64,000 nucleotides of DNA, from contig CAYZNS010000006.1 in NCBI GenBank assembly GCA_964479945.1, positions 1,107 through 65,106 on the forward strand. Direction: 5' to 3'. Positions within the stretch are counted from its first letter, which is position 1. Each line of letters opens with the position of its first letter. The notes below the pieces were generated by a model. The model did no database searches and was not told the DNA's origin. It was given only the letters and a program-made list of their open reading frames with translations. Origin of the DNA: an uncultured Candidatus Saccharibacteria bacterium (GTDB lineage Bacteria > Patescibacteriota > Minisyncoccia > Ryanbacterales > 2-02-FULL-48-12). This document shows, in pieces, positions 3,964 to 60,865 of the stretch. The translations under genes were made by a program, and so were the position numbers.

Positions 3964-4042
3964 GATTCAGGATTCAGTGTCAGTTGGATTCAGGATTCAG
4001 AGGATTCAGGATTCAGTGTCAGGATTCAGATTCAGTGTCAGG
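3964..4042. repeat. Tandem GGATTCAG(T/A)-type short repeat array immediately 3' of the helicase stop
   Basis: ggattcaggattcagtgtcag...ggattcaggattcagtgtcaggattcagattcagtgtcagg seen directly. Confidence 0.8.
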
Positions 4043-4917: not shown

Positions 4918-5026
4918 ACAATGGCGGAAATGGTTGAAAAACGGTTGGCATATTGTCACACATGTCTTTAGGTATAGCACTCATTGTGCTTTGGCGACCC
5001 GACAAAAAAAGACTGGCACATGCCAG

Positions 5027-5224
5027 TCATTTATCCTCAATCGGTTCTACCCAATATATTTGCTTGTGGGCATGCTTTTCAAGCTCCTCTTTTTTCTCTT
5101 CCGCCTCTGCCCTTGTATCATATTTCTTTTCTATATAATATTTTACCCCGTTGTCGTCCTGCCGGACGATCTGATAGCGTGTCATGGCATCCTCATTCAA
5201 TTGCGAGCGCCGCTTCAATATCAT
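5027..5224 (-). CDS. small hypothetical protein (65 aa, K/E-rich)
   Basis: ORF only; overlaps 3' end of the isochorismatase gene by ~30 nt. Confidence 0.25.
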   Translation of the reverse strand: MILKRRSQLNEDAMTRYQIVRQDDNGVKYYIEKKYDTRAEAEEKKEELEKHAHKQIYWVEPIEDK

Positions 5225-5810
5225 GCGCTATGCGTATGCGGCGCGGCGCGGCGGCAGAAGGGACCTCTTTGAGAATATTTTCTAACCAATATTCTTCCCG
5301 CCGCTCCGTCAACCTTGTATAACAGCACTGCCCAAGCAACGTTACCGCAAAACCGTTTCGTAACCCGCCAACTGCTGTCCAATACACGCAACACTCCGTA
5401 TGAAATCCTGCCAGACATATCTCGCGGACGTTGCGCTCTTGAAGGTAGTGCAAGAAAGCTTTGTTTGTAAATGCGTCGGTTGTCTTCTTGCAAAATACAG
5501 GCTCGGCGGCATGATTATGCTCCAAAAACGGAGCGAGAGAATACTCCCCATCGCAAAATACGCACGAATCAAATGCCCGAAACATGATTTCTTTCTGATA
5601 TTGATCCAGCGGATAGCCATACGGACACACAATAAATACAATTGGCATTTGTAAGCTAGATGCGCGCGCAATAGAAAGCGCTTTGGCTATATTGCCAGCC
5701 ACTACGATAGTGTCATCCGTAAACCCAAGTTTTATTTTTTCCTTGTCTATGCAATCCCAACACTCATCACTCCCTTGATGAATATCAACTATTACCAATG
5801 CCTTTGTCAT
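5193..5810 (-). CDS. isochorismatase-family cysteine hydrolase
   Basis: ALVIVDIHQG...ICLAGFHTECCV with the D/K/C catalytic arrangement typical of isochorismatase/nicotinamidase fold. Confidence 0.7.
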   Translation of the reverse strand: MTKALVIVDIHQGSDECWDCIDKEKIKLGFTDDTIVVAGNIAKALSIARASSLQMPIVFIVCPYGYPLDQYQKEIMFRAFDSCVFCDGEYSLAPFLEHNHAAEPVFCKKTTDAFTNKAFLHYLQERNVREICLAGFHTECCVYWTAVGGLRNGFAVTLLGQCCYTRLTERREEYWLENILKEVPSAAAPRRIRIAHDIEAALAIE

Positions 5811-6833: not shown

Positions 6834-9800
6834 CTACGCGGCAGTAGGTTCCGATGCCGGCTCGCCGCCTGCGATGCCCATCAGCTTGCGAAACGTGTTT
6901 TGCTCCATGGTTTCGTGTTTGATAAGATACTCGGCAATTTCCATAAGTTTTTCCTTGCGATCGCGCACAATTCCTTTCGCTTTCTCAAGCGCCTCTTTCA
7001 TAAAACGCGCAACTTCTGTATCCACTAAGGAAGCAATTTCTTCGGAATATTTTTTCTCGTGTCCGATTTCACGCCCCAAAAACACCAAATCGCTTTGATC
7101 GTCCCATGCGACCGGACCTACTTTTTCCGACATGCCATACCGCGTTACCAAACCGCGCGCCAAACCTGTTGCTTTGCGAATGTCGTCCGAAGAGCCGGTT
7201 GTAATCTCTCCGAATACCACCTCCTCGGCGGCGTATCCGCCCAAAGAAACTGCCAATTCATCAAGGAAAAAATCGCGCGTGTACAGGTGTCGGTCTTCCG
7301 TGGGCAATTTCATGGTATATCCGCCAGCTCTACCGCGCGATACGATAGAAATTTTGTGCACCGGATCGGCGTTCGGAAGCGATGCCGCTACCAGCGCGTG
7401 CCCCGCTTCGTGAAATGCCGTAATTTTCTTTTCCTTCTCGGAAAATACTTTGCTTTTGCGCTCGGGTCCCAGCATTACTTTCTCAATAGAGACCACAAGA
7501 TCTTCCTGACTTACCGTTTTGCGGTCGTGGCGCGCCGCCAGAATGGCCGCTTCGTTCACCAGGTTCGCCAAGTCGGCGCCGGAGAACCCCGGCGTGCGCT
7601 CGGCAATCTGCCGCAAGGTTACGTCTTTGCTCATCGTCTTTTTAGCGGCATGCACCTGTAAAATTTCATCGCGCTCGGCGATATCCGGCAAATTCAATAC
7701 CACTCTGCGATCAAACCTTCCGGGGCGCAACAACGCGGGGTCCAGTACATCCGGCCGGTTTGTTGCCGCCATTATAATAACTTTGTCCGATGTTTCAAAA
7801 CCGTCCATCTCGGTTAATATCTGATTTAAGGTCTGCTCGCGCTCGTCATGTCCGCCACCCAAGCCCGCGCCGCGATGCCGCCCTACGGCGTCAATTTCAT
7901 CCACGAAAATAATCGCGGGAGCCGCTTTCTTTGCCATCTTAAATAAATCCCGTACGCGGCTGTTATGAAGCAACATCGGCTTTTCTCCGCCAAAAAACGC
8001 TTCATTTTCGCAACCAACCAGATCATACACATAATCGTTATATGGTTTTTTTGTAACTTTTTGAACGATAGGCCGCTTAAACTGATTGGGGCTTCGATAT
8101 GATAATCCGCTCCAGAAATCGCTTGTTTTTCCTACAATAATATTCCATGCCTCACCTGCCGGTAATGGTTTTTTGCCCATGCTGATTATCCTTCCCGGTT
8201 TTAAAGCCATTCTCCGCACGCCGACTTGAATGCCGTGCATGTTCAAAAGCCATGTGAGCTCGCGAATCAAGCCATGGCTAACGGATGTCATGCTTAGCTT
8301 GCCATCTTTCGTAACATACCCATCGCCGTCAGAATATCCTTTTACAAATTCACACACATACTCCCACGGAAGCTCCCATATCCACTGCGGCAGATGTTTT
8401 TGGTGACTGCCCGTCCCGCATTGCGTTTCAAAAAAACGGGCAAGCGGCTCTGCATGTACCGTGATGCGCGTGCTATTTGTAGTTGTCTCTTCCACATGTA
8501 CCGGAAGATTAAAAATCTGCTTTACCAACGAAATACAGTCGTTAATCAATGCTTTTTCATGCGAACCGAAAACAAACTGTGTATAATACGCCGTTGTGCG
8601 TCCTTCTGCCATATAATAACCCAAGATACGCATCAAATCTTTGGTAACGGCAACTTGCGCCGGAAGACCCTGCGTGATACTGCGGGACGAATACACGCGT
8701 GGCTTATGCGTGCCGTCTATCCATTTGCCAACGATTGCCTGGCTCATACCCACATGCGTGCCGATTTCTTTCTGTGTCATGGTTTCGGCATGCGCCAACG
8801 CATACGCATATTTTTCATTCGCTTGCCGGTACTGTTCCTCCCAGATCGGCAATAACGGGATCTGTTCAACATCAAACTCGTGCGCTTTTACTTTGTGTGT
8901 TGTACCAAAGCCAGGCACAAACGAAGAGCGTACTTTATAGGGAAGATTTACCAATACGTCGCCTTCCTCAAGCTCATCAGCGCGTTTTGCGCGCACGTAA
9001 TTTTTTTCCCGAACAAAAATACTATGATCCCCCGTTGTGCGAACAACGCCGCCGCGGAAATAAATCTCATATATGGAATCAACTTTATGGCGGTACACGC
9101 CTGAAAACGGTGCAAATCGGGAACCGCCCATATTAAATTTATCTTCGTTATTTTTAAAACCCCAAAAGCCAGTTCCCGCGCGTCTGGCGCTTAACGTTTC
9201 TAATCCGGAAACCTTTTTTACCATGCCGCCCTCGCCTTCCTTATAAAACTTATCCGCAACTTCCCGAATGGATAGAAGCTGCACTTTGCTGTCTTCCCGA
9301 ATAAGCACCGGCGTATCACCTGTTACAGAAGCCCCCACGCCTACAAACATTTCCACGAACTCGGAGGCCGACATATGAAAAAACGGCACGCCCGCTTCAA
9401 ACGCGACCGCTTTTGCCAGCAATGTCTTCCCCGTACCCGGCGCGCCCATCAACAGCACGCCGCGCGGAATGCGCGCTCCAATATCCAAAAACTTTTGCGG
9501 ATTTTTCAAAAAGTCCACAATTTCCAAAAGCTCTTCTTTGGCTTCTTCCGCGCCTGCCACATCCTTAAATGTTACTTTCTCGCGCGGGTCGTCCGGATTG
9601 ATAACGCGCGCGCGGGATTGCCCGAACATGAGCGCCTGCCCGTTAGAGCGCTGCACCTGGCGCATGGTAAGCCATATAAAAAGGCCGATTAAAATTATAG
9701 GCAAGAGAAACGGCAGTAGCGCCGAAAGCCAGAACGCAAGGCCGGACTGTTCTTTTACTTCAATGGTTATATCGGCAAGCATCTCGGGTGTAACCCCGTA

Positions 9801-10088
9801 ATTGCTTAATGTGTCGGACAAGGCGGCGTCCGGCTCTTTCTGCGATGTCTGCACCGTACCGTTTTTGAGCACGATTTCCAATTTATTGTTTGCCGCGGAA
9901 ATACGCAGTATCTCGCCCACGCGGATTTCTTCCACCAACCGGGAAAGCGAAACTGCTTCCGGCTTGTCCCGTTCGGCAAAAGAAGCATACAGCGCCGTGA
10001 GCACCAAGAAAATTAAAATGGCATAGAGAATATTTTTACCGAATTGCCCCATGGGGTTTTTCGGCATTTTTGGTTTTTTTAGGTTCAT
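6834..10088 (-). CDS. ftsH: ATP-dependent zinc metalloprotease FtsH interrupted by an intein (extein 628 aa + intein 456 aa)
   Basis: N-terminal TM helices. Walker A GAPGTGKT. Extein junction [10 protein letters not shown]|S...HN|SRVRDLF...[16 protein letters not shown] zinc site in the C-terminal protease domain. Confidence 0.9.
7962..9329 (-). mobile_element. Intein with LAGLIDADG homing-endonuclease domain inside ftsH (aa 254-709)
   Basis: Starts SVTGDTPV (Ser1). Block B RTTGDHS. Two LAGLIDADG motifs LGYYMAEG and [11 protein letters not shown]. Ends ...LLHN followed by Ser+1. Removing it restores the canonical FtsH sequence GVGA-SRVRDLF. Confidence 0.8.
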
Positions 10089-17466: not shown

Positions 17467-17516
17467 TGCTTGAATTTTAAACGTTCTTCGTTACACGTTT
17501 TACGTTCTACGAACTT

Positions 17517-18629: not shown

Positions 18630-19737
18630 AGGGCACGCTATAGTATGCTCCATGCAGCGTGAGCATATTTTTGCAAATGCTCTCAACCATATACCGGAGC
18701 TTGGACCGCGCCGTCTGGCGGACCTTTATGCGCGGTTTGCCTCTTTTGAGCGCATGTGGCACGCCGCGTTATCCGATCTTGGTTTGGCTCTCCATAATGA
18801 TGCGCTCGCGCGCGCTGTCGCCGAGAAGCGCCGCGCTATCAATCCCGAACGGGAGTATGAGCGTGCCAGATCCCGCAACATAACAATCATACTGAAAACT
18901 GATCCTGCTTATCCTTCCCACCTGCGAGATCTGCCGGATTCCCCCGCTCTCTTATACATAGAAGGCGCGTTGCAGGCATTTACTCTCCCCGCGCTTGCCG
19001 TTGTTGGTACGCGTTCCCCGACACCTTACGGCCGCGAAGCGTGCCGCGCGCTGGTAGGCCCCGTAGCGGCCGCAGGCATTCCCATTATTTCCGGACTTGC
19101 TGTAGGCATTGACGCAGAAGCGCATAAAACAGCTCTTACGGAAAGTGGATATACGATAGGAGTTTTGGGATCTGGCATAGCGCGCGACGCTCTGTATCCA
19201 ACCCAAAACAAACGCCTCGCCGATGAAATAATCGCGCATGGGGGCGCACTTATTTCGGAATACCCGCCGTTTTTTAAAGCGGCAACATGGACATTTCCCA
19301 TGCGAAACCGTATTATCGCGGGGTTGAGCGCTGCCGTGCTTGTGGTAGAAGCAAAAGAAAAAAGCGGTACGCGCATTACCGCAAATTATGCTGCCGAATA
19401 CGGTCGCGACGTGCTTGCCGTACCAGGCGCTATCTTTTCCGCCAACTCATGGACGCCCCATAGCTTGATCCGGGATGGCGCGGCGGCGGTTACATCAGCC
19501 CATGAAGTGTTCGATGCTCTTGGGTTGCAGCGCCCTACCGTTGCAAGCGCCGTTGCCAATGTATCGCCGGATGAGCAGACAATTCTTGCTCTATTAGAAC
19601 ATGAACCGCGGTCAGCAAACGATTTGGCGCGCGGCTGCGCGATTGGCATCGGCGCCATACAACATATTCTCGCGCATTTTGAAATACGTGGTATGGTACG
19701 GAATATGGGAAACGGAGTGTACAGAAAAGTATCATGA
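18616..19737 (+). CDS. dprA: DNA-processing protein DprA (Smf)
   Basis: LAVVGTRSPTPYGREA...GLAVGIDAEAHKTAL...MRNRIIAGLS is Rossmann-like DprA signature. The dprA-topA order is conserved in many bacteria. Confidence 0.8.
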   Translation: MWRIRGHAIVCSMQREHIFANALNHIPELGPRRLADLYARFASFERMWHAALSDLGLALHNDALARAVAEKRRAINPEREYERARSRNITIILKTDPAYPSHLRDLPDSPALLYIEGALQAFTLPALAVVGTRSPTPYGREACRALVGPVAAAGIPIISGLAVGIDAEAHKTALTESGYTIGVLGSGIARDALYPTQNKRLADEIIAHGGALISEYPPFFKAATWTFPMRNRIIAGLSAAVLVVEAKEKSGTRITANYAAEYGRDVLAVPGAIFSANSWTPHSLIRDGAAAVTSAHEVFDALGLQRPTVASAVANVSPDEQTILALLEHEPRSANDLARGCAIGIGAIQHILAHFEIRGMVRNMGNGVYRKVS

Positions 19738-19740
19738 AAA

Positions 19741-19800
19741 CATTAAAACACAAGAACATAAAAACACTTCTGCTTTAACATTTTTGTGTTTTAATGTTTT
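19741..19800. promoter_or_regulatory. Inverted repeat CATTAAAACACAA / TTGTGTTTTAATG between dprA and topA
   Basis: Seen directly. Candidate terminator or leader hairpin. Confidence 0.3.
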
Positions 19801-19828
19801 CATGTTGTAGTGCTTTAATGAATTACCA

Positions 19829-22093
19829 ATGAAATCCCTTGTAATTGTAGAATCCCCCACTAAAGCCAAAACCATTTCCCGCTTCCTCGGGAAAGATTTT
19901 GTCGTGGAATCCAGCTTCGGCCACATTCGCGATCTGCCTTCGTCGTCGCTAGGCATTGACGTAGAGCATAATTTCACACCCAAATATGTTATTCCCCGTA
20001 AAGCATCGCCGAAGGTAAAAAACTTGAAAGAACTCGCGAAAAAGGCAGATCGTATTATTCTGGCAACTGACGAAGACCGGGAGGGAGAAGCCATAGCGTG
20101 GCACCTCACCCAGGCCCTTGGCCTGGGAAATTCCAATTTCCAAGAAACAATTTCCAAACGAATTACAAACAAAAACAAAAAATCAAATTCAAAACAAAAA
20201 AAAGAACACGCTCCACGCTCCACGCTCCACGCTCCACAAATCCAACGGATCGTTTTTCATGAAATTACCAAAAAAGCGATAGAGGATGCGCTTAAGCATC
20301 CGCGGGAGATTGATGCGCATCTAGTGGACGCGCAGCAAGCGCGGCGTATTTTGGACCGGCTGGTTGGCTATAAGCTCTCGCCGTTTCTCTGGAAGAAGAT
20401 AGTGCGCGGTCTCTCTGCCGGCCGCGTACAGTCAGTTGCCGTGCGGCTTATTGTAGATCGCGAACGCGAAATTGAAAAATTCAAACCACAGGAATATTGG
20501 TCGATTTCCGCACTACTGCGGAAATCGCAATTTCCAATTTCCAATCCACCAACTGGCGGACAATTTCCAAACGAATTTGAAGCACTGCTCATAAAAAAAG
20601 GCAACGAATCGCTGGATAAATTTGCCATAAAAACAAAACAGGCGGCGGATAATATTGTTGCTGATCTCACCGGCGCTTCCTACACCGTAAAATCCGTAGA
20701 GAAAAAAGCAACCCAGCGCATGCCCCCGCCTCCCTTTACCACGAGCACGCTTCAACAGGCGGCATCAGCGCGAATGGGATATTCCGCGCGCCAGACCATG
20801 GTATTAGCCCAGCAATTATATGAAGGCATTGATGTTGGCAACGGCGGCCATACCGGCTTGATAACCTATATGCGCACCGATTCGCTTAATCTATCCGCAG
20901 AATCGCTCACAGCAGCCGCAGTTTATATTACATCCGCGTGGGGTTCTTCGTACGCACTGTCCGCACCGCGCGTTTATAAAACAAAATCAAAGGGGGCGCA
21001 GGAAGCGCACGAGGCAATCCGTCCCACCGACGTTACGCGCGCGCCCGCGCGCATAAAACAATATCTTGACAATAAGCAATATAAATTATACGAACTCATA
21101 TGGCAGCGTTTTGTAGCAACGCAAATGCCACCCGCAATATTCGACAGTACAACTGTCGATATTGCGGCAAATCACAAAACACAAATCACAAATTCCAAAC
21201 AAATTCCAAATTCAAAAATCCAAAATCAAAACATAGAATACCTATTTCGCGCCACGGGGTCCGTTCTGAAGTTTGACGGATTTCTCAAAGCGTACCCCAT
21301 AAAAACGGAGGACAAATTGCTACCGGAACTTGTGGAAAAACAGGTACTTGATCTGGAGAAACTGGAGCCGCGGCAGCATTTTACCGAGCCGCCTCCACGG
21401 TATTCGGAAGCATCTCTTATTAAAGTGCTGGAAAAAAACGGCATTGGTCGGCCTTCCACCTATGCACCAACCATCGGCACCATTCAAGAACGCAATTATG
21501 TGCAAAAAAATGAGGCAAAACGCTTCCAACCGACTGAGATGGGCGTTATGGTAAACGACCTCTTGGCAGAACATTTCCCCGCTATTGTAGATGTGCAATT
21601 TACCGCGCGCATGGAAGAAGACTTGGATAAAATAGCAGAAGGAGAGCGCGCATGGGTGCCGACCATTCGGGAATTTTATGAACCGTTTGAAAAAACCTTA
21701 CTGGAAAAATACGAAACCGTTAAAAAACAAACCACAGACGAAACTACGGACGAGATATGTGAAAAGTGCGGCAAGCCGATGGTAATAAAACACGGGCGCT
21801 TCGGTAAATTTATTGCCTGTTCCGGTTTCCCGGAGTGCCGCAACACGAAACGTTCGTCCGAATCCTCCCCAGCCATTGGCATACCCTGCCCCAAATGCGG
21901 CGCGGAAATTATCCAAAAAAGAACGAAACGCGGTAAATTTTTCTTCGGCTGCAGCGCCTATCCCACATGCGATTTTGCTTTGTGGGATAAACCCACCGGG
22001 GAGAAATGTCCGAAATGCGGCTTGTTGATGGTAGAGAAAGGGAAGAAAGTTGTTTGTTCTGATAAGGAATGTGCTAGGGTATTAGAGCATTAG
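19829..22093 (+). CDS. topA: DNA topoisomerase I with three C-terminal C4 zinc ribbons and three in-frame low-complexity insertions
   Basis: Toprim IVESPTKAKTI. Active-site region LITYMRTDS. Zinc ribbons CEKCGKP...CSGFPEC, CPKCGAE...CSAYPTC and CPKCGLL...CSDKEC. Confidence 0.9.
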   Translation: MKSLVIVESPTKAKTISRFLGKDFVVESSFGHIRDLPSSSLGIDVEHNFTPKYVIPRKASPKVKNLKELAKKADRIILATDEDREGEAIAWHLTQALGLGNSNFQETISKRITNKNKKSNSKQKKEHAPRSTLHAPQIQRIVFHEITKKAIEDALKHPREIDAHLVDAQQARRILDRLVGYKLSPFLWKKIVRGLSAGRVQSVAVRLIVDREREIEKFKPQEYWSISALLRKSQFPISNPPTGGQFPNEFEALLIKKGNESLDKFAIKTKQAADNIVADLTGASYTVKSVEKKATQRMPPPPFTTSTLQQAASARMGYSARQTMVLAQQLYEGIDVGNGGHTGLITYMRTDSLNLSAESLTAAAVYITSAWGSSYALSAPRVYKTKSKGAQEAHEAIRPTDVTRAPARIKQYLDNKQYKLYELIWQRFVATQMPPAIFDSTTVDIAANHKTQITNSKQIPNSKIQNQNIEYLFRATGSVLKFDGFLKAYPIKTEDKLLPELVEKQVLDLEKLEPRQHFTEPPPRYSEASLIKVLEKNGIGRPSTYAPTIGTIQERNYVQKNEAKRFQPTEMGVMVNDLLAEHFPAIVDVQFTARMEEDLDKIAEGERAWVPTIREFYEPFEKTLLEKYETVKKQTTDETTDEICEKCGKPMVIKHGRFGKFIACSGFPECRNTKRSSESSPAIGIPCPKCGAEIIQKRTKRGKFFFGCSAYPTCDFALWDKPTGEKCPKCGLLMVEKGKKVVCSDKECARVLEH
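20128..20240 (+). repeat. In-frame insertion 1 in topA (AATTTCCAA / CAAAAA motifs, then CACGCTC x4)
   Basis: Encodes GLGNSNFQETISKRITNKNKKSNSKQKKEHAPRSTLHAPQ, between conserved AWHL and RIVFHEITK blocks. Confidence 0.55.
20521..20577 (+). repeat. In-frame insertion 2 in topA carrying CAATTTCCAATTTCCAATCCACCAACTGGCGGACAATTTCCAAAC
   Basis: Near-identical to tsaD segment 60317-60366. Confidence 0.6.
21168..21236 (+). repeat. In-frame insertion 3 in topA (AAATCACAAA / AATTCCAAA / CAAAATCAAAA motifs)
   Basis: Encodes NHKTQITNSKQIPNSKIQNQN. Confidence 0.5.
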
Positions 22094-22254
22094 GTTTTAG
22101 AGCATTATTGAGCTTTCATAAACAGCTTAACATGGTCGTCTTCTCAAAAATGCTTTAAAATAGGCATTTTACGGGGCATGCGCCTGTTAAGTGAATAGTG
22201 AAAGGTCAATAGAAAATGGGAATCCTACTAACCTAAAGCTCTAATGCTCTATTC

Positions 22255-24298: not shown

Positions 24299-25987
24299 TT
24301 ATTCAGTCAAGAACTCAATTCCTCCTGCATCTTTTTGCACACACAATTTCCCATTCTTGAGCGTTATAGCACCTTTTCTTATAGGATCATATAAATATTT
24401 TTTTCCTTGTGGATGGTTTTTTTGGTATTTAATGAAATCTACAAGGATATCTTTAAATGTGGGTATATTTTTTAAAACATGTTTAACTATCCCATCTATG
24501 TAAGCAGTCGCATCGCCTTCCCTGCCTCGCATACTGTCCTCAAATGAAGCCAGTTCCTCTCTTGTCATTCCATTCCTAACTAAAAGGATGAATCTATTCA
24601 TTGCGTCCAAAGATTCTGGTTTATAGAGAGGATCTTTTGGCGCCTGCTTTTCCATTTTTTCTCGCCATTCTTTCAAGCCAATTTCCGGATCGGTGCTAAT
24701 AGTAATACCACTTTGCATGAGTTCCTTTTCAACAGCAAGTAGTCTGCGCCATATATCAGCGCTATTCTGCACAGCATCTACTACACGATTATTAATAACA
24801 TCCATGTACAATTTCTCTTTTTTTGGGATCTCCACTTTTATACGGCTCAAAACTTCTTTAAAAAAGAAAACATTTTTGATGTTCTGTTTGCAATCACGAA
24901 TCATATGCTTTAAAGTGAAATACCGCTTAACATCCACGTTACTGTCATCCTGAATGTCCTCTTCGGAGACCATACCATCCAATCGTTTATCAACTTTCTT
25001 GGCCTCAAAAAGAATATTTTGCACTTGTGGTAATAATTCCACATTCTCCATTATTGCATTATGTTCTTCTCTGTCTATCTTTTTTAGCGTTCCTGATAGA
25101 TAAATTAAATTCAACTCATCACTCCTGGAATCTATGGCTATGTTTTGTAAAATTTGATCCATTTCGTGAGTACCAAATCCTTTGCTCTCTGCTTTTTCAA
25201 CCATCGCCGCATAATATTCTATTTTCTCGGGTATCTCAAGTTTATTAAACTCAAGCACTTGCTCCAACCGCAACTCTCGCAACTGCTCAGGCGTTAATGG
25301 AAGTTGTTCCTGCACGCCACCAAAACGATCAACTCTCGATAGCGGCGACCCTTCATTTGTCTTTTCTTCGTATTCTGCCAACTCTTCCTCTGAAGAAGTT
25401 CTTGGTATTGATTGAATAAATTCTTTATACGTTTTCGCTTTTTCGGGATACTGGCTCGCAAATTCATTCCACATATGGATTGAATTTGCTTCGTATGTCC
25501 GATTCCAGACTTCATTGAATTGAAGTGTCGGTTTCTCAAGTGCTTGCCGCACACCAGAATCGGCATTTGTTTTTCTTAGTATTTCATTTTCCAAATTTTG
25601 AACAGCGGGATCATCAATAGGGTTATCGTAGATACGTTTCTCCTCTCGTGCATCATACATCTGTGCTACTTCACTAAATTTCTCTCGAAAGAGATTTTCG
25701 GCTCGATCATCCAAAGTAACCGGCTTCTCATGTTTTTTAAAAGCAGTTGGATCGCCAAACATATAATCTTGAAACTCGGAACGCAGTTCATTTCCATTCC
25801 ACCTATTACCATTCTGTCTTTCCCAATCAGCGATCAATTCATCTTTTATTGACTGAAATCTTGGATCATCAATTAATTTCCTCGTCAGACTCAACTCTTG
25901 CGTCTCGATTTTCTTATCCATACTTTCATCCTTATCTGGTTCAATTATTCGCGGCTGTTCGTATAAAATTTTTTTTTCGCCTTCCAT
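24299..25987 (-). CDS. hypothetical acidic protein (562 aa)
   Basis: ORF only; AT-rich relative to its neighbours. Confidence 0.5.
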   Translation of the reverse strand: MEGEKKILYEQPRIIEPDKDESMDKKIETQELSLTRKLIDDPRFQSIKDELIADWERQNGNRWNGNELRSEFQDYMFGDPTAFKKHEKPVTLDDRAENLFREKFSEVAQMYDAREEKRIYDNPIDDPAVQNLENEILRKTNADSGVRQALEKPTLQFNEVWNRTYEANSIHMWNEFASQYPEKAKTYKEFIQSIPRTSSEEELAEYEEKTNEGSPLSRVDRFGGVQEQLPLTPEQLRELRLEQVLEFNKLEIPEKIEYYAAMVEKAESKGFGTHEMDQILQNIAIDSRSDELNLIYLSGTLKKIDREEHNAIMENVELLPQVQNILFEAKKVDKRLDGMVSEEDIQDDSNVDVKRYFTLKHMIRDCKQNIKNVFFFKEVLSRIKVEIPKKEKLYMDVINNRVVDAVQNSADIWRRLLAVEKELMQSGITISTDPEIGLKEWREKMEKQAPKDPLYKPESLDAMNRFILLVRNGMTREELASFEDSMRGREGDATAYIDGIVKHVLKNIPTFKDILVDFIKYQKNHPQGKKYLYDPIRKGAITLKNGKLCVQKDAGGIEFLTE

Positions 25988-27180: not shown

Positions 27181-27253
27181 AATGAATTATGAAGATAGAA
27201 TTATGAATTATGGGAAAAAATCTTGTTCCATAATTCCTGATTCATAATTCATC
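27181..27253. repeat. Palindromic element family I (GAATTATGAA ... TTCATAATTC) in the parA-parB intergenic region
   Basis: aatgaattatgaagatagaattatgaattatggg...ccataattcctgattcataattcatc. The same motif class is inserted in tsaD at 59752-59832. Confidence 0.6.
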
Positions 27254-29774: not shown

Positions 29775-30386
29775 ATGTTCGATAAATTTATAAAATTCTA
29801 CGAGCGAACAATACGAAAAATGTGGCACATTCGTGCCGGCGGCACTTTACGTTCGCTGAAAGGCACGCTCGTTGAGACGATGGCCGAGGAGATGGTTTTA
29901 CTCGCATGGAAAAATATCGGCGGCAAATCTTCGCGCATCAAAATCAACAAAACAAAATATCCTATCAGTGATGGAAGGGGAAATGTTTATAAGCTGTCCC
30001 AAGATAAACAGGTTTATATTGATGATGAATTTGTGCTGTCAATCGAGTGTAAGGCATATGCAGAGGTCGCGATGTATAAACGTATATTAGTTGATGCCTT
30101 TTTGCTCAAAAAGCATTTTCCAAAACTCAAATTCTGCCTTTTCCAATTAGAAAGTATGCTTGGCGGTGATTACTCCATTGCCGTTGATCATCCGAACGAA
30201 AGCCCATCGGTCAAAGTTCTTGAGCATCATTTTCCAAATCTCGACATTGAGATCATCACTATGCTGGATGGAGAACGAAACATCAAAGGGGAAATACATA
30301 AAAAGCAGTTTTATAAACCACTTCGTCCCGAAAGATTAGACCACGCAATCAAATACTTTGAGCGCGCATTAAAAGAGCATCTCTAA
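29775..30386 (+). CDS. putative type II restriction endonuclease (PD-(D/E)xK fold)
   Basis: YIDDEFVLSIECKAY gives D...E-C-K. The ORF is translationally coupled to the C gene and convergent with the MTase (4-nt stop overlap). AT-rich. Confidence 0.5.
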   Translation: MFDKFIKFYERTIRKMWHIRAGGTLRSLKGTLVETMAEEMVLLAWKNIGGKSSRIKINKTKYPISDGRGNVYKLSQDKQVYIDDEFVLSIECKAYAEVAMYKRILVDAFLLKKHFPKLKFCLFQLESMLGGDYSIAVDHPNESPSVKVLEHHFPNLDIEIITMLDGERNIKGEIHKKQFYKPLRPERLDHAIKYFERALKEHL

Positions 30387-31885
30387 AATAACTTCGCCGG
30401 AATTTCCTTTATTCGTTTCTCGGAGATTTTGCAGTATTTTGGTGAGATATCTATTCCGATATATTTTCTGCCTGTTTCTGCGGCGCAAAGTGTGGTTGTT
30501 CCCGCGCCGTTGAACGGATCAAGTACAATATCGTCTTGATAGCTAAAGAGTTTCATTAGTCGCGTTGCTAACTCCTTTGGAAACATTGCAGGATGATCAT
30601 ATTCTTTCATGTTTCGTTCGGGAGCGATGGACCATTTTGCATAAACCCATTTCTTGAATTCGTCGCCTGTTATATCGGCTTTTGACGAGTCGCCAGCCTT
30701 TTTGTGTGTATCTTTTGAGAAAACTTCAACAAATTCCCATGTGTATTTTAGATATGGCATACTAGGGCTTTTCCAACTGCCCCATGCAGTATACTTGCAG
30801 TTATAGTTATTTTTCTCCCACAAAATTTCTCCCTTCCAGATCAACCCATGATTAAGTAGTTGTTTTGACATCAAATGATGTGTCGGAATGTAATCTGAAA
30901 ACAACGGCTGCACGTTAAGGCAGAGCCGCCCTCCGGGTTTTAGAATGCGCGCGCACTCTTTCCAAATTGCGTCTATCTTCTTAAAATACTCGTCCCAGTG
31001 AATCGCGTCATTTTTCTCATCGTCTTTATATTCTAGGCCGAAATTATACGGTGGAGATGTAATGATAATATCAATCGAACCAGTTGGGATTTTACGCAAA
31101 ACTTCTTCACTGTCGCCACATATAATTTTGTCTGTAAACTTCTCAATGCCATTTGCTTGTGTAACCGCAAAAGCTTCTTTTTGAAATTTTGTGCCGCCCC
31201 GTGCTCTTTCTTTCGCCTCTCTATTTTTGACTTTTCTTTCTCGATTAAGAAGTTTTGCGTCTGGATAAATTTCTACTGGAGACATAAAACCGCCATCACG
31301 AATAACATCAAGCACTATGCCCTGAATTGAAACATCCCGCCCATTTCTAAAAATAAGTGGCTCCATAGTTTTGTTTGCCGGCTGTAAGCGGATATACTCC
31401 CTCTCTTTGTAAAATTTCTTTAAGGTTGCTTCGTGATTGTCGATGAGAGCTACTACCTTTTGTCCGTTCTCGGCTGTTTCCTGCTGACGCACCAAAACTA
31501 TATCGCCATCATTTATATTTTCATCAACCATGCTACTGCCGACTACACGGAGAGCATAAACTTCTGATGAAGAAGGGATTTTACTTTTTGGGACAGCGAT
31601 CATTTCCTTGTCTTGTATTGCTTCGATTGGTTGTCCGGCGGCAATAGTCCCCAAAAGAGGAATTTTTACCATTGTTTCACGACCAAATGCTTCAATAGAG
31701 CGCGGTTTATTTTCTTCTTTAGACAAAAGTCCTAAATCGCGGAGTTTTGAGACATGAAAATGAGCCGTAGAAACGGATGAGAGTTTTAATTTCTTGCGTA
31801 TCTCGTCAAGAGAGGGAGCGTATCCTTTGCGCCCCTGATAATCGGTTATGAAATCGAGAGCTTGTTTTTGCCTTTTTGTTACCAT
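30383..31885 (-). CDS. Fusion protein: complete LexA-type repressor (wHTH + Ala-Gly site + S24 peptidase Ser/Lys dyad) joined to an N4/N6 DNA methyltransferase
   Basis: N-terminal LexA DNA-binding domain at aa 1-65. Cleavage site LLGTIAAGQPIEA with A83-G84. Peptidase motifs VVGSSMVDENINDGDIVLV (Ser118) and EATLKKF (Lys156). MTase motif IV IIITSPPY. MTase motif I VLDPFNGAGTTT, at the C-terminus. Confidence 0.8.
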   Translation of the reverse strand: MVTKRQKQALDFITDYQGRKGYAPSLDEIRKKLKLSSVSTAHFHVSKLRDLGLLSKEENKPRSIEAFGRETMVKIPLLGTIAAGQPIEAIQDKEMIAVPKSKIPSSSEVYALRVVGSSMVDENINDGDIVLVRQQETAENGQKVVALIDNHEATLKKFYKEREYIRLQPANKTMEPLIFRNGRDVSIQGIVLDVIRDGGFMSPVEIYPDAKLLNRERKVKNREAKERARGGTKFQKEAFAVTQANGIEKFTDKIICGDSEEVLRKIPTGSIDIIITSPPYNFGLEYKDDEKNDAIHWDEYFKKIDAIWKECARILKPGGRLCLNVQPLFSDYIPTHHLMSKQLLNHGLIWKGEILWEKNNYNCKYTAWGSWKSPSMPYLKYTWEFVEVFSKDTHKKAGDSSKADITGDEFKKWVYAKWSIAPERNMKEYDHPAMFPKELATRLMKLFSYQDDIVLDPFNGAGTTTLCAAETGRKYIGIDISPKYCKISEKRIKEIPAKLF

Positions 31886-37143: not shown

Positions 37144-37896
37144 CTACCCCTTGCTGTCATGCGCCTCCACGCGGAGCGTTACCATATAATCAGCGCCATC
37201 CAATTCTGGACCTGATTTCGGATGAGGACTTACTTCCAGAAGAGTTATAATATAGCTTCCTGTTACTGCGGCATTCGGTATGCCACTGTCGCCCGGGAGG
37301 CGCAACCGCAACTCCTCGCCGCCCGCCTTGATATGCACGGTAACCCAACCTGCCTGTATGCATTGCACATCCTGCGGACAACGGCTATCATCTTCCACAC
37401 CTGTGAACGCAATTTTCAAATCCTCCACCCATTTGACTTCCCCGAATGCGAGCGTAAATGTATTTCCTTCTTCCGCGCTTACCCGTTCCCGACGTTCAAC
37501 ATCCAATACAAACGGCGTGTTGTTGATCGTCGCGGACAATACCGCATTATTCGCAGCGTCAAACGATACGCGGAACGGCGCCTCAAAAATAACCTGCGCG
37601 CAGATATCGGCGGTTTGCTCGGCAGTAAAGCGCAATACAACTTCTTCCGGGCTGCCCCCATGATTCTCGGCCGACACGGAAAGCGTATAGCACGGGTTAG
37701 GAAGCGTCACGGTCCCCTCCACGGTATGCATGCCGTTACCCGCGTAATCCACGCCGGTAGCTTTCTCCGCAAGCGGCTGCGCGCTTGCTTCCTCTTCACT
37801 CCGCCAGCCGGCGGAGCGGAACATAAGCCACGCGCCGAGGCCAAGCAACACTATGATAAGTATTCCCCAGATTGTTTTTTTGGTTGTCATATTCAT
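37144..37896 (-). CDS. hypothetical membrane-anchored protein
   Basis: N-terminal TM IWGILIIVLLGLGAWLMF. Confidence 0.5.
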   Translation of the reverse strand: MNMTTKKTIWGILIIVLLGLGAWLMFRSAGWRSEEEASAQPLAEKATGVDYAGNGMHTVEGTVTLPNPCYTLSVSAENHGGSPEEVVLRFTAEQTADICAQVIFEAPFRVSFDAANNAVLSATINNTPFVLDVERRERVSAEEGNTFTLAFGEVKWVEDLKIAFTGVEDDSRCPQDVQCIQAGWVTVHIKAGGEELRLRLPGDSGIPNAAVTGSYIITLLEVSPHPKSGPELDGADYMVTLRVEAHDSKG

Positions 37897-59530: not shown

Positions 59531-60865
59531 ATGATAATTACCGCAATAGAAACATCGTGCGATGAGACGGCAATTGCCGTTATTCAAACCGCCGGCGGAG
59601 GACGCGGCTTTCGCGTACTCTCCAATTTGGTGCTTTCGCAAGCTAATCTTCATGCCGAATGGGGCGGCGTGGTACCGAATTTGGCTAAACGAGAACACGA
59701 AAAAGCTTTGGTACCCATGCTTTTACAGGCATTGGACGAAACAGGGCTTTTTGAATCAAGAATCATGAATTATGAATCAAGGAAAAAAAACAAAACCCAT
59801 AATTCAAAATTCATAATTCATAATTCAATTCTAGAAAAGAATGAAGAACTTAGAAAATCTTTTGAAGCGCATATTACAAGCATCTCGCGCCCAAACATAG
59901 ATATAATCGCCGTAACGCAGGGGCCGGGGCTGGAACCGGCATTATGGGTAGGCGTTAATTTCGCGCGGGCGCTCTCGGCGCTGTGGAATATTCCGTTGTT
60001 AGGTGTAAACCATATGGAAGGACACATCGTCTCGGCGAGAATCGCCGAGACGGACGCAAAACGTAAAACGCAAAACGTAAAACTACAACTCAAAACTCAA
60101 AAACCTAAAACCTATCACCTAAAACCTATCACCTGCCCCGCGCTTGCATTGCTGGTCAGTGGTGGTCACACGGAATTGGTACTTATGAAAAAGCCGCTGC
60201 ACTATGAAATTATCGGCGAAACGCGGGATGACGCGGCAGGCGAAGCGTTTGATAAGGTGGCACGGCTTCTCGGCCTTCCCTATCCTGGAGGACCCGCCAT
60301 AGCTCAGCAAGCTGATCTATGGAATTTCCAATTTCCAATCCGCCAGCTGGCGGACAATTTCCAAACAAATTCCAAAATCAAAAATCAAAATTCCAAACAA
60401 AAATTACGAGTTACGGATTACGAGTTACGGATTACGCTCCCTAGGCCGATGATAAACACAAAAGACTTTGACTTTTCGTTTTCCGGCTTAAAGACTGCCG
60501 TTCTTTATCTCATACGAGACTTAGAAAAATGCGGTGAAAACATCAAAAAACTTCGTCCTGCCATCTGCAAAGAATTTCAAGATGCCGTGGTAGATGTGCT
60601 TGTTGCAAAAACCATCCGCGCGGCAAAGGAATATAAGGCAAAAACGATTCTTCTTGGCGGCGGCGTCGCCGCAAATAAGGAACTCCGCAAGCGCCTTGCG
60701 GAAGAAATTAAAACTCAGCTACCACGTTCTACGTTCCACGTTCCACGTTCTACTCTTACGGGTGACAACGCGCTCATGATAGCCGTCGCGGCAATGGAAC
60801 GCGCAAAACAAGCAAAAAAAACAACATGGAAAACGCTCAAACCGGACGCAAATATGCGATTTTGA
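59531..60865 (+). CDS. tsaD: tRNA N6-adenosine threonylcarbamoyltransferase TsaD (Kae1/YgjD) with four in-frame low-complexity insertions (~100 extra aa)
   Basis: MIITAIETSCDETAIAV. GVNHMEGHI metal site. LVSGGHTEL. GGGVAANKELR. Confidence 0.9.
   Translation: MIITAIETSCDETAIAVIQTAGGGRGFRVLSNLVLSQANLHAEWGGVVPNLAKREHEKALVPMLLQALDETGLFESRIMNYESRKKNKTHNSKFIIHNSILEKNEELRKSFEAHITSISRPNIDIIAVTQGPGLEPALWVGVNFARALSALWNIPLLGVNHMEGHIVSARIAETDAKRKTQNVKLQLKTQKPKTYHLKPITCPALALLVSGGHTELVLMKKPLHYEIIGETRDDAAGEAFDKVARLLGLPYPGGPAIAQQADLWNFQFPIRQLADNFQTNSKIKNQNSKQKLRVTDYELRITLPRPMINTKDFDFSFSGLKTAVLYLIRDLEKCGENIKKLRPAICKEFQDAVVDVLVAKTIRAAKEYKAKTILLGGGVAANKELRKRLAEEIKTQLPRSTFHVPRSTLTGDNALMIAVAAMERAKQAKKTTWKTLKPDANMRF
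59752..59832 (+). repeat. In-frame insertion 1 in tsaD: palindromic GAATTATGAA/TTCATAATTC element (family I)
   Basis: Encodes ESRIMNYESRKKNKTHNSKFIIHNSIL. Confidence 0.55.
60052..60134 (+). repeat. In-frame insertion 2 in tsaD (AAAACGTAAAACG / CTCAAAACTCAAAA / CCTATCACCTAAAA tandem motifs)
   Basis: Encodes DAKRKTQNVKLQLKTQKPKTYHLKPIT, right after conserved HMEGHIVSARIAE. Confidence 0.55.
60322..60440 (+). repeat. In-frame insertion 3 in tsaD: CAATTTCCAATCCGCCAGCTGGCGGACAATTTCCAAAC + CAAAATCAAAA + (TTACGAGTTACGGA)x2
   Basis: Encodes NFQFPIRQLADNFQTNSKIKNQNSKQKLRVTDYELRITL. Contains perfect palindrome CCGCCAGCTGGCGG. Confidence 0.6.
60721..60755 (+). repeat. In-frame insertion 4 in tsaD: (CCACGTTCTACGTT) tandem motif
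   Basis: Encodes PRSTFHVPRSTL. A similar ACGTTCTTCGTTACACGTTTTACGTTCTACG lies intergenic at 17480-17515. Confidence 0.5.

What the first reader, a model, noticed from the sequence alone, without database searches (positions are those of the whole stretch)
20128..21236. Three in-frame low-complexity insertions in topoisomerase I
Relative to canonical TopA, the ORF carries three in-frame insertions: GLGNSNFQ...HAPRSTLHAPQ, SQFPISNPPTGGQFPNEF, and NHKTQITNSKQIPNSKIQNQN. Each is made of short tandem DNA motifs (AATTTCCAA, CAAAATCAAAA, CACGCTC x4). The reading frame and all catalytic motifs are preserved, so the element lengths have been selected to be multiples of three, as in Rickettsia palindromic elements. 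The second insertion is shared with tsaD (see 60317-60440).
Basis: seen in the sequence. Interest (0 to 1): 0.75.

Follow-up and report, generated by a model that had tools for sequence, protein, structure and literature searches.

The report
Translated heptamer-repeat DNA elements inside topoisomerase I
The topoisomerase I gene of this Parcubacteria (CPR) bacterium carries three in-frame copies of one small dispersed DNA repeat, built from 7-base tandem units and sometimes a GC-rich hairpin, which also sits in the loops of many other housekeeping genes across CPR bacteria and appears to be undescribed.

Summary
topA (19829-22093, +) has three in-frame, stop-free insertions at 20126-20239, 20525-20575 and 21170-21232. 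Solved TopA structures lack all three, and the nearest orthologues lack the second and third. In an AlphaFold model all three fall in low-confidence loops, and the catalytic residues are intact.

The repeat unit is 7 nt, not 9 or 11. All three insertions align to one ~60-nt backbone: (AATTTCC)2-4 + AAAC + AAATTCC/AAAATC-like units.

Insertion 2 also holds a decayed 14-nt palindrome, CCGCCAGCTGGCGG. It matches the tsaD copy (60323-60371) at 46 of 49 nt but is read in a different frame. The conserved unit is therefore DNA, not peptide.

Eighteen distinct copies of this hairpin composite turned up in Parcubacteria, Levybacteria and Saccharibacteria contigs. They lie inside pyruvate kinase, ArgRS, GatA, a Mur ligase, RecX, RNase HII and other genes, in all frames and both orientations. 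The 46-nt core has no stop triplet on either strand.

Relatives carry the same backbone with no hairpin or with different hairpins.

Best reading: a selfish or neutral dispersed repeat, tolerated and translated in surface loops. It behaves like Rickettsia RPEs but is not one. How it spreads is unknown.

The parts
19829..22093 (+). topA CDS (type IA DNA topoisomerase I, 754 aa), the host gene
   Evidence: ORF. Pfam PF01751, PF01131 and PF01396 precomputed for the identical protein P0001. PDB TopA hits at E=4e-159. Invariant E8, D81-E87 and Y347.
20126..20239 (+). Insertion 1 (aa 100-137, 114 nt). Nt 20126-20206 are the AATTTCC-type backbone without a hairpin (GGGAAATTCCAATTTCCAAGAAACAATTTCCAAACGAATTAC...). 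Nt 20207-20237 are a separate perfect heptamer array, CACGCTC x4.4, encoding HAPRSTLHAP.
   Evidence: Gap against PDB TopAs. Hypervariable column block in A1. TRF. Aligns to the tsaD site C backbone with 0 of 500 shuffles reaching the score. pLDDT below 50 for residues 102-134. No predicted DNA structure.
20525..20575 (+). Insertion 2 (aa 233-249; net +14 aa against relatives). It has two AATTTCC units, then AAT, then a decayed palindrome CCACCAACTGGCGG, then ACAATTTCCAAAC.
   Evidence: Absent from L001, L003 and L004. 46 of 49 nt identical to tsaD 60323-60371. nhmmer E=7e-17 against a profile of the 18 copies, of which this copy is one. Loop between strands 222-232 and 249-257. Hairpin lost: -1.4 kcal/mol, no better than shuffles.
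21170..21232 (+). Insertion 3 (aa 448-468, 63 nt). A diverged copy of the right half of the backbone (CAAATCACAAATTCCAAACAAATTCCAAATTCAAAAATCCAAAATCAAAAC).
   Evidence: Absent from L001, L003 and L004 and from PDB TopAs. 44 of 52 ungapped matches to tsaD site C with the hairpin removed, 0 of 500 shuffles. Loop between strands 436-448 and 471-482, pLDDT about 50-59.
59531..60865 (+). tsaD CDS (444 aa, against about 340 aa in solved TsaD). A second host gene with four heptamer-based insertions.
   Evidence: ORF. PDB alignment splits into 4 blocks with gaps at aa 74-120, 172-198 and 262-299. Orthologue alignment A2.
60320..60436 (+). tsaD site C. An intact composite element (two AATTTCC units, AAT, palindrome CCGCCAGCTGGCGG, then ACAATTTCCAAACAAATTCCAAAATCAAAAATCAAAATTCCAAAC), followed by an ATTACGAGTTACGG x2.4 array (60403-60436).
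   Evidence: Hairpin -8.6 kcal/mol, z=-2.2. nhmmer E=2e-19 against a profile that includes this copy.
59750..59827 (+). tsaD site A insertion, made of TGAATCA and CATAATT heptamers.
60047..60133 (+). tsaD site B insertion, made of ACGCAAA, ACGTAAA, ACTCAAA, ACCTAAA and ACCTATC heptamers. Orthologues carry the AATTTCC backbone at this same site.
60722..60750 (+). tsaD site D. A CCACGTT x4 heptamer array encoding PRSTFHVPRST.
37801..37814 (.). Bare copy of the palindrome (CCGCCAGCCGGCGG, one mismatch; 16 bp with the flanking T and A), without heptamer flanks. It lies inside ORF 37144-37896 (-) and encodes ...RSAGWRS...
   Evidence: ORF.

Best explanation
The three topA insertions are copies or derivatives of one small dispersed DNA repeat family found in CPR (Patescibacteria) genomes.

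**Anatomy.** The family has an A/T/C-rich backbone of about 60 nt. It consists of 2-4 tandem AATTTCC heptamers, then AAAC, then degenerate AAATTCC/AAAATC-like units. Short GC-rich hairpin modules of 19-36 nt can sit inside it. One of these is the palindrome CCGCCAGCTGGCGG.

**Shown.**
- The element exists as DNA. It is nearly identical at unrelated loci and is read in different frames.
- It lies in frame and without stops inside essential genes.
- In TopA it occupies three low-confidence loops and leaves the catalytic residues untouched.
- The core carries no stop triplet on either strand.

**Inferred.**
- The element is selfish or neutral DNA. It survives only where the encoded N/F/Q/P/I/S/K-rich peptide can be extruded as a disordered surface loop, so copies accumulate at the same permissive loops in different lineages.
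- Arrays then evolve by 7-nt slippage and gene conversion. Only net changes of 3n nucleotides are viable inside genes. For example, the 19-nt hairpin is accompanied by one heptamer fewer, giving a net +12 nt.
- Hairpin modules enter pre-existing heptamer arrays.

**Not shown.** The spreading mechanism is unknown. My preferred guess is copy-and-paste by recombination between arrays, possibly helped by natural transformation, which CPR bacteria are thought to rely on. I prefer this to classical transposition because there are no terminal inverted repeats, no visible target duplication, and no transposase nearby.
For: **Insertions are real.** They appear as gaps against solved TopA structures. 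Sites 2 and 3 are absent from three syntenic relatives at about 70-77% identity.

**One family.** All three topA sites, tsaD site C and eight sites in relatives align to one backbone. For sites 1 and 3 against the tsaD element, 0 of 500 shuffles reach the observed score.

**DNA-level unit.** topA site 2 and tsaD site C agree at 46 of 49 nt. Across topA site 1, topA site 2 and tsaD site C, the AATTTCC array is read in codon phases 2, 1 and 0.

**Dispersed.**
- A 20-mer of the element gave 18 loci in GTDB genomes, against roughly 2 expected from database size and uniform base use (my estimate). About 10 of them carry the complete element.
- A 23-mer gave 19 metagenome loci.
- Together these make 18 distinct copies. 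Their 17 nt upstream of the search pattern, which the search did not require, are also conserved.

**Hosts.** Prepilin peptidase, FemAB, pyruvate kinase, RecX, TsaD, GatA-type amidase, Mur ligase, ArgRS and RNase HII. Both orientations and all phases occur.

**Modularity at tsaD site C.**
- L042 has (AATTTCC)x4 with no hairpin.
- The window has a 19-nt hairpin module.
- L043 has a 36-nt hairpin that also occurs in topA site 1 of L004.

**Stop-free.** The 46-nt core has no stop triplet on either strand (0.23% of shuffles). The backbone has none on the sense strand (0.25% of shuffles).

**Loops.** pLDDT is below 50 for residues 102-134. Sites 2 and 3 are loops between paired strands.

**Period 7 is specific.** Lag-7 and lag-14 arrays occur in the window and in CPR loci but not in control loci.
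Against: - No mobilising enzyme, terminal inverted repeat or target-site duplication was found, so mobility is inferred only from distribution.
- Element boundaries could not be fixed to the base. Site 2 is a net +42 nt, and the relatives have CCGCCG exactly where the palindrome arm lies, which could also point to a local origin.
- The collection scans required a 20-23-nt exact match, so the apparent near-identity across CPR classes is partly due to how copies were found.
- Some arrays, such as tsaD site D, differ in unit sequence between lineages yet encode the same peptide pattern. That fits growth in place and concerted evolution better than insertion.
- Translation of the insertions is inferred from frame and stop conservation. 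There is no peptide evidence.
- A selective benefit of the loops cannot be excluded.
Confidence: 0.7

Rival explanations
1. The insertions arose purely in place. Each loop grew where it is by replication slippage of heptanucleotide simple-sequence repeats, and similarities between sites are convergence driven by composition.
For: Heptanucleotide repeats are reported as the most abundant long SSR class in most prokaryote genomes and are attributed to polymerase slippage (Mrazek et al. 2007, as summarised in PMC4679880). tsaD site D carries different heptamers in different lineages at one site. The CACGCTC x4.4 array is perfect and local. Site 1 is hypervariable among relatives.
Against: A 49-nt stretch that includes a non-repetitive 14-nt palindrome is 94% identical in two unrelated genes, in different frames. 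Eighteen distinct copies share the same non-repetitive parts across CPR classes. A second 36-nt hairpin is shared between tsaD of one genome and topA of another. Slippage probably explains array dynamics, but not the origin of the family.
Confidence: 0.12
2. The loops are adaptive protein features, such as Lys-rich DNA-binding loops or interaction loops, kept by selection on the peptide.
For: Insertion 1 is Lys/Asn-rich (KRITNKNKKSNSKQKK), and a segment is retained at that site in several relatives. TopA and TsaD of many Parcubacteria are longer than the canonical proteins.
Against: The same DNA is read in three frames and both orientations, giving unrelated peptides. The closest orthologues lack sites 2 and 3. 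The segments have low pLDDT. Sequence at site 1 turns over rapidly.
Confidence: 0.08
3. The segments are ancestral variable loops of Parcubacteria TopA rather than insertions.
For: Site 1 is occupied by 10-50 residues in most Parcubacteria orthologues. Sites 2 and 3 carry other short insertions in some distant orthologues (P0019, P0029, P0042, P0043).
Against: The occupying sequences are not homologous between lineages except where they share the DNA element. Close relatives have empty sites 2 and 3. Solved TopAs have no such segments.
Confidence: 0.05
4. The segments are removed before the mature protein forms (intron-like, intein-like or translational bypass), or they are assembly artefacts.
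For: Low-complexity repeats can be misassembled. Bypassed GC-rich hairpin elements in coding genes are known from yeast mitochondria (from my own knowledge).
Against: All seven insertions in topA and tsaD keep the frame and have no stop. By itself the frame would be kept in all seven with probability (1/3)^7 if it did not matter. The segments are too short for an intein and lack intein splicing residues. No Rfam intron or other family matches. Independent assemblies from other samples show the same kind of insertion at the same sites.
Confidence: 0.03

Closest known systems
Rickettsia palindromic elements (RPE; Ogata et al. 2000, listed in PMC3184786)
   Same: A dispersed, non-coding-origin DNA repeat inserted in frame into housekeeping genes. 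It is translated, tolerated in surface loops away from active sites, and also found between genes.
   Different: RPEs are about 105-146 bp, fold as long palindromes, and are confined to Rickettsia. Here the elements are about 42-114 nt, are built from tandem heptamers, and are mostly unstructured. The only palindrome is an optional 14-nt module. The hosts are CPR bacteria. There is no sequence relationship.
Small dispersed repeats (SDR) within tandem heptameric repeats (STRR) of Nostoc and other cyanobacteria (Elhai et al. 2008, Genome Res 18:1484). Cited from memory: the paper is not held in the library.
   Same: Very small hairpin-forming modules that appear inside arrays of tandem heptanucleotides. 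There are several hairpin families with one common architecture, and no transposase is evident.
   Different: The phylum and the sequences are different. As far as I recall, the cyanobacterial elements are mainly intergenic or lie inside other mobile elements. The CPR elements were found largely inside essential ORFs, and their core has no stop triplet in any of the six frames.
Heptanucleotide long simple-sequence repeats of prokaryotes (Mrazek et al. 2007) and TAACTGA repeats of Beggiatoaceae and cyanobacteria (PMC4679880)
   Same: A strong, specific excess of 7-nt tandem units. The same heptamer occurs in distantly related lineages, which suggests horizontal spread with no evident mechanism.
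   Different: Those repeats are mostly intergenic. TAACTGA contains stop codons and is excluded from ORFs. In the same literature, units whose length is a multiple of three are the ones expected inside genes. Here 7-nt units sit inside ORFs.
Borg tandem repeats that create intrinsically disordered regions (PMC9879509)
   Same: A-rich tandem repeats that add disordered segments to proteins without breaking ORFs and that evolve quickly.
   Different: All Borg repeats within ORFs have unit lengths divisible by three and are locally unique. Here the unit is 7 nt and the same sequence is dispersed across loci and lineages.
REP/REPIN and MITEs (PMC3116915, PMC3184786)
   Same: Short dispersed repeats, some with a GC-rich hairpin. 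Other such repeats have occasionally been reported fused in frame to ORFs.
   Different: No terminal inverted repeats, no target duplication, no RAYT or matching IS found, and a predominantly intragenic location.

Membership tests
Type IA DNA topoisomerase (TopA), the host protein | Toprim, Topoisom_bac and C-terminal zinc-ribbon domains, with the catalytic Tyr and the acidic Toprim residues | tested here: met
   Pfam PF01751, PF01131 and PF01396. PDB TopA at E=4e-159. E8, DEDREGE (81-87) and Y347 in ITYMRTDS.
Rickettsia palindromic elements (RPE) | In-frame, stop-free insertion in protein-coding genes, located in loops away from catalytic sites | tested here: met
Rickettsia palindromic elements (RPE) | Element of about 100-150 bp that folds into a long palindromic stem-loop | tested here: not met
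   Lengths are 114, 51 and 63 nt. DNA folding gives -2.1, -1.4 and 0 kcal/mol, none better than shuffles.
Rickettsia palindromic elements (RPE) | Sequence homology to RPE families and occurrence in Rickettsia | not tested
   No RPE consensus was available in the tools. The host is a Parcubacteria bacterium, so membership is implausible.
MITE | Terminal inverted repeats | tested here: not met
   The flanks of the hairpin are direct AATTTCC repeats. Alignment of 18 copies shows no terminal inverted repeats.
MITE | Target-site duplication at filled sites compared with empty sites | tested here: inconclusive
   No duplication is visible at topA site 2 against L001 and L004, or at the short copies in L024, L025 and L036. 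Boundaries are not resolved to the base.
MITE | A cognate autonomous IS with matching ends | not testable with these tools
   The window holds only an IS630-like HTH fragment (4444-4917). The rest of the genome is not available.
REP/REPIN | Short GC-rich palindrome, extragenic, associated with a RAYT transposase | tested here: not met
   The palindrome module is present, but copies are mostly intragenic. No RAYT was found among the window ORFs scanned, and not all ORFs were scanned.
Heptanucleotide simple-sequence repeats (long SSR) | At least 3 head-to-tail copies of a 7-nt unit, in excess over chance | tested here: met
   TRF. Lag analysis shows regions almost only at lag 7 and its multiple 14.
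Heptanucleotide simple-sequence repeats (long SSR) | Copy-number variation by slippage within populations | not testable with these tools
   No reads are available. Between genomes, AATTTCC copy number differs (2-4) at orthologous sites.
Small dispersed repeats in heptamer arrays (cyanobacterial SDR) | Hairpin modules under 40 nt inserted within tandem heptamer arrays, with several hairpin families | tested here: met
   A 19-nt module, a 36-nt module and two other hairpins lie inside the AATTTCC backbone at orthologous sites. L042 shows the hairpin-free array.
Small dispersed repeats in heptamer arrays (cyanobacterial SDR) | Sequence identity to SDR1-8 or STRR units and cyanobacterial host | not tested
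   The reference paper is not held. The host is CPR, so this is at most an analogue.
Intein or intron (segments that are removed) | Splicing motifs or a catalytic RNA structure, with no need for frame or stop conservation | tested here: not met
   No Rfam hit. The segments are 17-38 aa. Frame and stop-freeness are conserved in 7 of 7 insertions.

The most novel reading that the evidence does not exclude
CPR (Patescibacteria) genomes may harbour an undescribed class of ultra-small modular DNA elements: a heptamer-array backbone of about 60 nt plus interchangeable 16-36-nt GC hairpins. These elements preferentially persist inside essential protein-coding genes and have a core free of stop triplets in all six frames. 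They are exchanged among CPR classes, possibly by transformation and recombination rather than by a transposase. If so, they would be a major, overlooked source of the extra, poorly conserved segments typical of CPR proteins.
Probability: 0.4. Interest if true: 0.75.

Novelty: new variant of a known kind. Interest (0 to 1): 0.62.

Why it matters
If correct, many of the extra, unalignable loops that lengthen CPR housekeeping proteins are not lineage-specific adaptations. TopA here is 754 aa against about 670-700 aa in the shortest close orthologues. TsaD is 444 aa against about 340 aa. RNase HII ranges from 215 to 329 aa among relatives. On this reading those loops are translated copies of a few tiny DNA repeat families.

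This matters in three ways:
- **Annotation and structure prediction.** The segments could be masked.
- **Phylogenomics of CPR.** Shared insertions may be horizontally acquired rather than synapomorphies.
- **Mobile DNA biology.** This would be a repeat with a 7-nt unit living inside ORFs, with a six-frame stop-free core, hairpin modules that enter heptamer arrays, and no visible transposase. It offers a tractable case of how selfish DNA creates new disordered protein segments in bacteria with minimal genomes.

Tried and rejected
- **Rfam.** The whole window at gathering threshold gave only five tRNAs. The tsaD element at E<=10 gave nothing credible; the best was CRISPR-DR58 at 15.7 bits against a gathering score of 38.
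- **IMG/VR viral contigs.** A scan for the 20-mer gave 0 hits, so there is no evidence for a phage vector.
- **Spread beyond CPR.** Hits in MAGs labelled Bdellovibrionales and Gammaproteobacteria first suggested this. The RNase HII of the 'Bdellovibrionales' contig L011 has its best named hits in Moranbacteria and Parcubacteria. I therefore treat those labels as probable binning errors and claim a CPR-only distribution. L008 and L010 were not checked.
- **Chance 20-mer matches.** L005, L007, L009, L012, L015, L017/18, L022 and L037/38/41 are high-GC or ordinary coding matches without the element. I used them as negative controls.
- **GC-dip scan for further coding insertions.** A window-wide scan for low-GC dips was too noisy to be useful.
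- **Indel census against the syntenic relative L001.** dprA, relA, parB and folD showed no heptamer-type indels, so insertions are concentrated in particular genes rather than uniform.
- **Search for a mobilising enzyme.** Pfam scans of 20 window ORFs found no RAYT, HUH or complete transposase. Not all ORFs were scanned.
- **Literature.** I found no paper describing in-frame heptamer or hairpin elements in CPR. Elhai et al. 2008 could not be read.
- **Window genome.** The window's own contig was among the hits of neither the genome scan nor the metagenome scan, so a genome-wide census for this organism was not possible.
Full report
**1. What is at the coordinates**

The ORF at 19829-22093 (+) encodes a 754-aa type IA topoisomerase. 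The identical protein is on record with Toprim, Topoisom_bac and zinc-ribbon Pfam domains. Its closest named relatives are Parcubacteria, including Ryanbacteria and Sungbacteria (CPR/Patescibacteria). It matches solved TopA structures at E=4e-159.

- aa 100-137, nt 20126-20239
- aa 233-249, nt 20525-20575
- aa 448-468, nt 21170-21232

Each coincides with a gap in the alignments to solved TopAs. The catalytic residues E8, DEDREGE (81-87) and Tyr347 in ITYMRTDS are intact and invariant among 28 orthologues.

**2. Is it more than chance?**

Tandem Repeats Finder reports CACGCTC x4.4 at 100% identity, CAATTTC x2.6, CAAATCA x3.7 and CAAAATC x4.6 inside the three segments.

A lag-autocorrelation scan of the whole window finds strong local periodicity almost only at lag 7. 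The exceptions are its multiple 14 and a single period-15 array. AATTTCCAA occurs 9 times against 1.8 expected, and 0 of 100 shuffles reach that count. Eight of the nine occurrences lie in topA or tsaD.

**3. Are they insertions?**

Twenty-seven Parcubacteria orthologues were aligned (A1). DNA of three syntenic relatives was read (L001, L003, L004) and a pairwise census was made.

- **Sites 2 and 3** are empty in the closest relatives (about 70-77% identity). More distant orthologues sometimes carry other, unrelated short insertions at the same loops.
- **Site 1** is hypervariable, from none to about 40 extra residues. Some relatives (P0002, P0009, P0015, P0019) share the opening GNSKFQ/ENSKS, encoded by GG(G)AAATTCCAAAT. 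Equally close ones (P0006, P0012, P0018) and the distant ones lack it.

Site 1 is therefore an older, patchily retained insertion. Sites 2 and 3 are private to this genome among those sampled.

dprA, relA, parB and folD show no such indels against L001.

An AlphaFold2 model built from A1 (mean pLDDT 78.6) places all three in loops:
- residues 102-134 have pLDDT below 50
- site 2 links strands 222-232 and 249-257
- site 3 links strands 436-448 and 471-482

**4. One element, three copies**

topA 20529-20577 and tsaD 60323-60371 agree at 46 of 49 nt. The AATTTCC array is read in codon phase 1 in topA site 2, phase 0 in tsaD and phase 2 in topA site 1. What is conserved is DNA, not peptide.

I aligned the three topA sites, tsaD site C and eight sites from relatives (A3). 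All fit one backbone:

GG AATTTCC AATTTCC AATTTCC AATTTC CAAAC AAATTCC AAAATC AAAAATC AAAATTCC AAAC

Against the tsaD copy with its hairpin removed:
- site 3 gives 44 of 52 ungapped matches
- site 1 gives an equally high score
- 0 of 500 shuffles reach either score

Insertion 1 also carries a separate perfect CACGCTC array. It is related to the CCACGTT array in tsaD and to the ACGTTCT array at 17477-17511.

**5. Modular hairpins**

tsaD site C shows three states in three genomes:
- L042 has (AATTTCC)x4 and no hairpin.
- The window has two units, then AAT[CCGCCAGCTGGCGGACAAT]TTCC. That is a 19-nt module with one heptamer fewer, for a net +12 nt.
- L043 has two units, a 36-nt hairpin (CCAGCCTCGACTCGTCCCGAGTCGGGCGAGGCGGGC), then two more units.

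The same 36-nt hairpin sits in topA site 1 of L004. L001 and L003 have yet other GC hairpins in topA site 1.

In the window's topA site 2 the palindrome has two G-to-A changes and no longer folds (-1.4 kcal/mol). The tsaD copy folds at -8.6 kcal/mol with z=-2.2. Sites 1 and 3 are unstructured.

A bare copy of the palindrome, with one mismatch, lies at 37801-37814 inside another ORF.

**6. Distribution**

- A 20-mer of the element found 18 loci among GTDB species representatives. I estimate about 2 expected by chance from database size, assuming uniform base use. About 10 of the loci carry the whole composite, in Levybacteria, Saccharibacteria, Yanofskybacteria and Parcubacteria.
- A 23-mer found 19 JGI metagenome loci.
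- After removing duplicates there are 18 distinct copies. The 17 nt upstream of the search pattern (AATTTCCAATTTCCAAT), which the search did not require, are conserved in most of them.

The copies lie in long ORFs, in all three phases and both orientations. Pfam identifies the hosts as prepilin peptidase, FemAB, pyruvate kinase, RecX, TsaD, GatA-type amidase, a Mur ligase, ArgRS and RNase HII.

Hits in MAGs labelled Bdellovibrionales and Gammaproteobacteria are probably mis-binned CPR contigs. The L011 RNase HII has Moranbacteria and Parcubacteria as its best named hits. There were no hits in IMG/VR.

Lag-7 and lag-14 arrays recur in these CPR loci and are absent from the chance-hit control loci.

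**7. Why it survives in genes**

The 46-nt core has no TAA, TAG or TGA on either strand, which only 0.23% of shuffles achieve. The 66-78-nt backbone has none on the sense strand (0.25% of shuffles). Any in-frame insertion is therefore readable.

All seven insertions in topA and tsaD keep the frame. Heptamers that do contain stops (CATAATT, ACGTAAA, ACCTAAA, TGAATCA) occur inside tsaD only in short runs or mixed with other units, so the stop is never read in frame.

Because 7 = 1 mod 3, three units encode a 7-residue peptide: NFQFPIS, HAPRSTL, PRSTFHV. Only net 3n changes are viable inside a gene.

**8. Mechanism: what is shown and what is inferred**

*Shown:*
- a dispersed DNA-level repeat
- in-frame and stop-free inside essential genes
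- located in loops
- modular hairpins within heptamer arrays

*Inferred:*
- The repeat is selfish or neutral DNA, filtered by selection to permissive loops.
- Arrays evolve by slippage and gene conversion.
- Spread occurs by recombination between arrays, possibly through natural transformation.

The inference about spread rests on three absences: no terminal inverted repeats, no visible target duplication, and no transposase or RAYT among the 20 window ORFs scanned. This last step is the weakest.

At site 2 the relatives have CCGCCG exactly where the palindrome arm lies. A targeted or locally templated origin therefore cannot be excluded.

**9. Comparison with known systems**

The behaviour matches Rickettsia palindromic elements: in-frame, translated and in loops (PMC3184786). 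The defining RPE size and long palindrome are not met.

The architecture most resembles the small dispersed hairpin repeats inside tandem heptamers of Nostoc (Elhai et al. 2008). I cite that from memory, because the paper is not held.

The excess of heptanucleotide repeats is a known general feature of prokaryotes (Mrazek 2007, via PMC4679880). That literature, and the Borg tandem-repeat study (PMC9879509), expect or find units divisible by three inside ORFs. This case differs.

Four literature searches found no description of such elements in CPR.

**10. Verdict**

The object is broader than reported: a modular heptamer-array and hairpin repeat family that colonises loops of housekeeping proteins across CPR. 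I rate it a new variant of a known kind, with interest 0.62.

Noticed in passing
window 22075-22251: A MITE-like unit fills the topA-relA spacer: 22-nt inverted repeats (TAGGGTATTAGAGCATTAGGTT / AACCTAAAGCTCTAATGCTCTA, 86% complementary) flank 133 nt. Its left arm supplies the last codons (..VLEH) and the stop codon of topA. In the syntenic relative L001 the spacer is only 24 nt.
   Followed up: partly
window 19733-19821: The 91-nt dprA-topA spacer is a near-perfect hairpin made of 8-nt-period arrays (CATAAAAA / TGTTTTAA). As DNA it folds at -20.8 kcal/mol, z=-5.0. In relatives dprA and topA overlap by 4 nt and have no spacer.
   Followed up: partly
window 27182-27252: Between parB and parA, heptamer arrays ATGAATT and CATAATT are arranged as an inverted repeat that folds at -13.7 kcal/mol, z=-3.7.
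   Followed up: partly
window 43160-43372: Heptamer arrays GCAAATG (x7) and CCATTTT (x5) abut complementary GC boxes (GGGGTCAGTCCC / GGGACTGACCCC) and flank 106 nt. The unit sits in the divergent spacer between the G6PD-6PGD fusion gene and ORF 43404-44312.
   Followed up: no
window 3962-4042 and 4444-4917: An AGGATTC/AGTGTC array starts at the stop codon of an SNF2-family helicase (592-3963). About 400 nt downstream is a 157-aa ORF with only transposase-type HTH domains (HTH_33/28/32), probably an IS630-like remnant.
   Followed up: no
window 60722-60750; L042, L043, L044 tsaD site D: At tsaD site D each lineage has a different heptamer array (CCACGTT, CTTACAA-like, CCTAATT). All encode the same duplicated pattern, P-x-S/T-x-F/Y/L-x-x P-x-S/T-x-L/V. 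This looks like concerted evolution of a coding heptamer array grown from the native sequence.
   Followed up: partly
window 6837-10088 (-): FtsH (AAA + Peptidase_M41) is 1084 aa long and contains an intein with a LAGLIDADG domain (Intein_splicing, LAGLIDADG_3) inside the AAA module.
   Followed up: no
window 30386-31885 (-): A single 500-aa ORF fuses a LexA DNA-binding domain, a Peptidase_S24 domain and an N6/N4 DNA methylase domain.
   Followed up: no
window 40601-43000 (-): An 800-aa fusion of glucose-6-phosphate dehydrogenase (G6PD_N/C) with 6-phosphogluconate dehydrogenase (NAD_binding_2 + 6PGD).
   Followed up: no
window 24299-25987 (-): A 562-aa ORF with no Pfam match and many stretches of 25% GC or less lies between relA and parB. 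These two genes are adjacent in the syntenic relative L001, so the ORF is probably a recently acquired gene.
   Followed up: no
P0127 TsaD site C (alignment A2): Another orthologue carries ..SFPRKRGSRNLILDSRFRGNDI.. at the same loop. It looks like the translation of a different GC-rich hairpin repeat family. P0122 and P0128 share yet another (..SALRPRVSAREL..). Several repeat families appear to compete for the same loop.
   Followed up: no
L033 (metagenome contig Ga0265297_10003711), the 578-aa open frame spanning 4519-5282: One GatA-type amidase gene holds three separate modules: the hairpin composite (4519-4560), a hairpin-free (AATTTCC)x4 array (4824), and a second copy of the palindrome flanked by other heptamers (5282).
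   Followed up: partly
L011 (CAZCMV010000008.1), L008, L010: Contigs deposited as Bdellovibrionales or Gammaproteobacteria MAGs carry the CPR element. The RNase HII of L011 is closest to Moranbacteria and Parcubacteria proteins, which suggests binning or taxonomy errors in those MAGs.
   Followed up: partly
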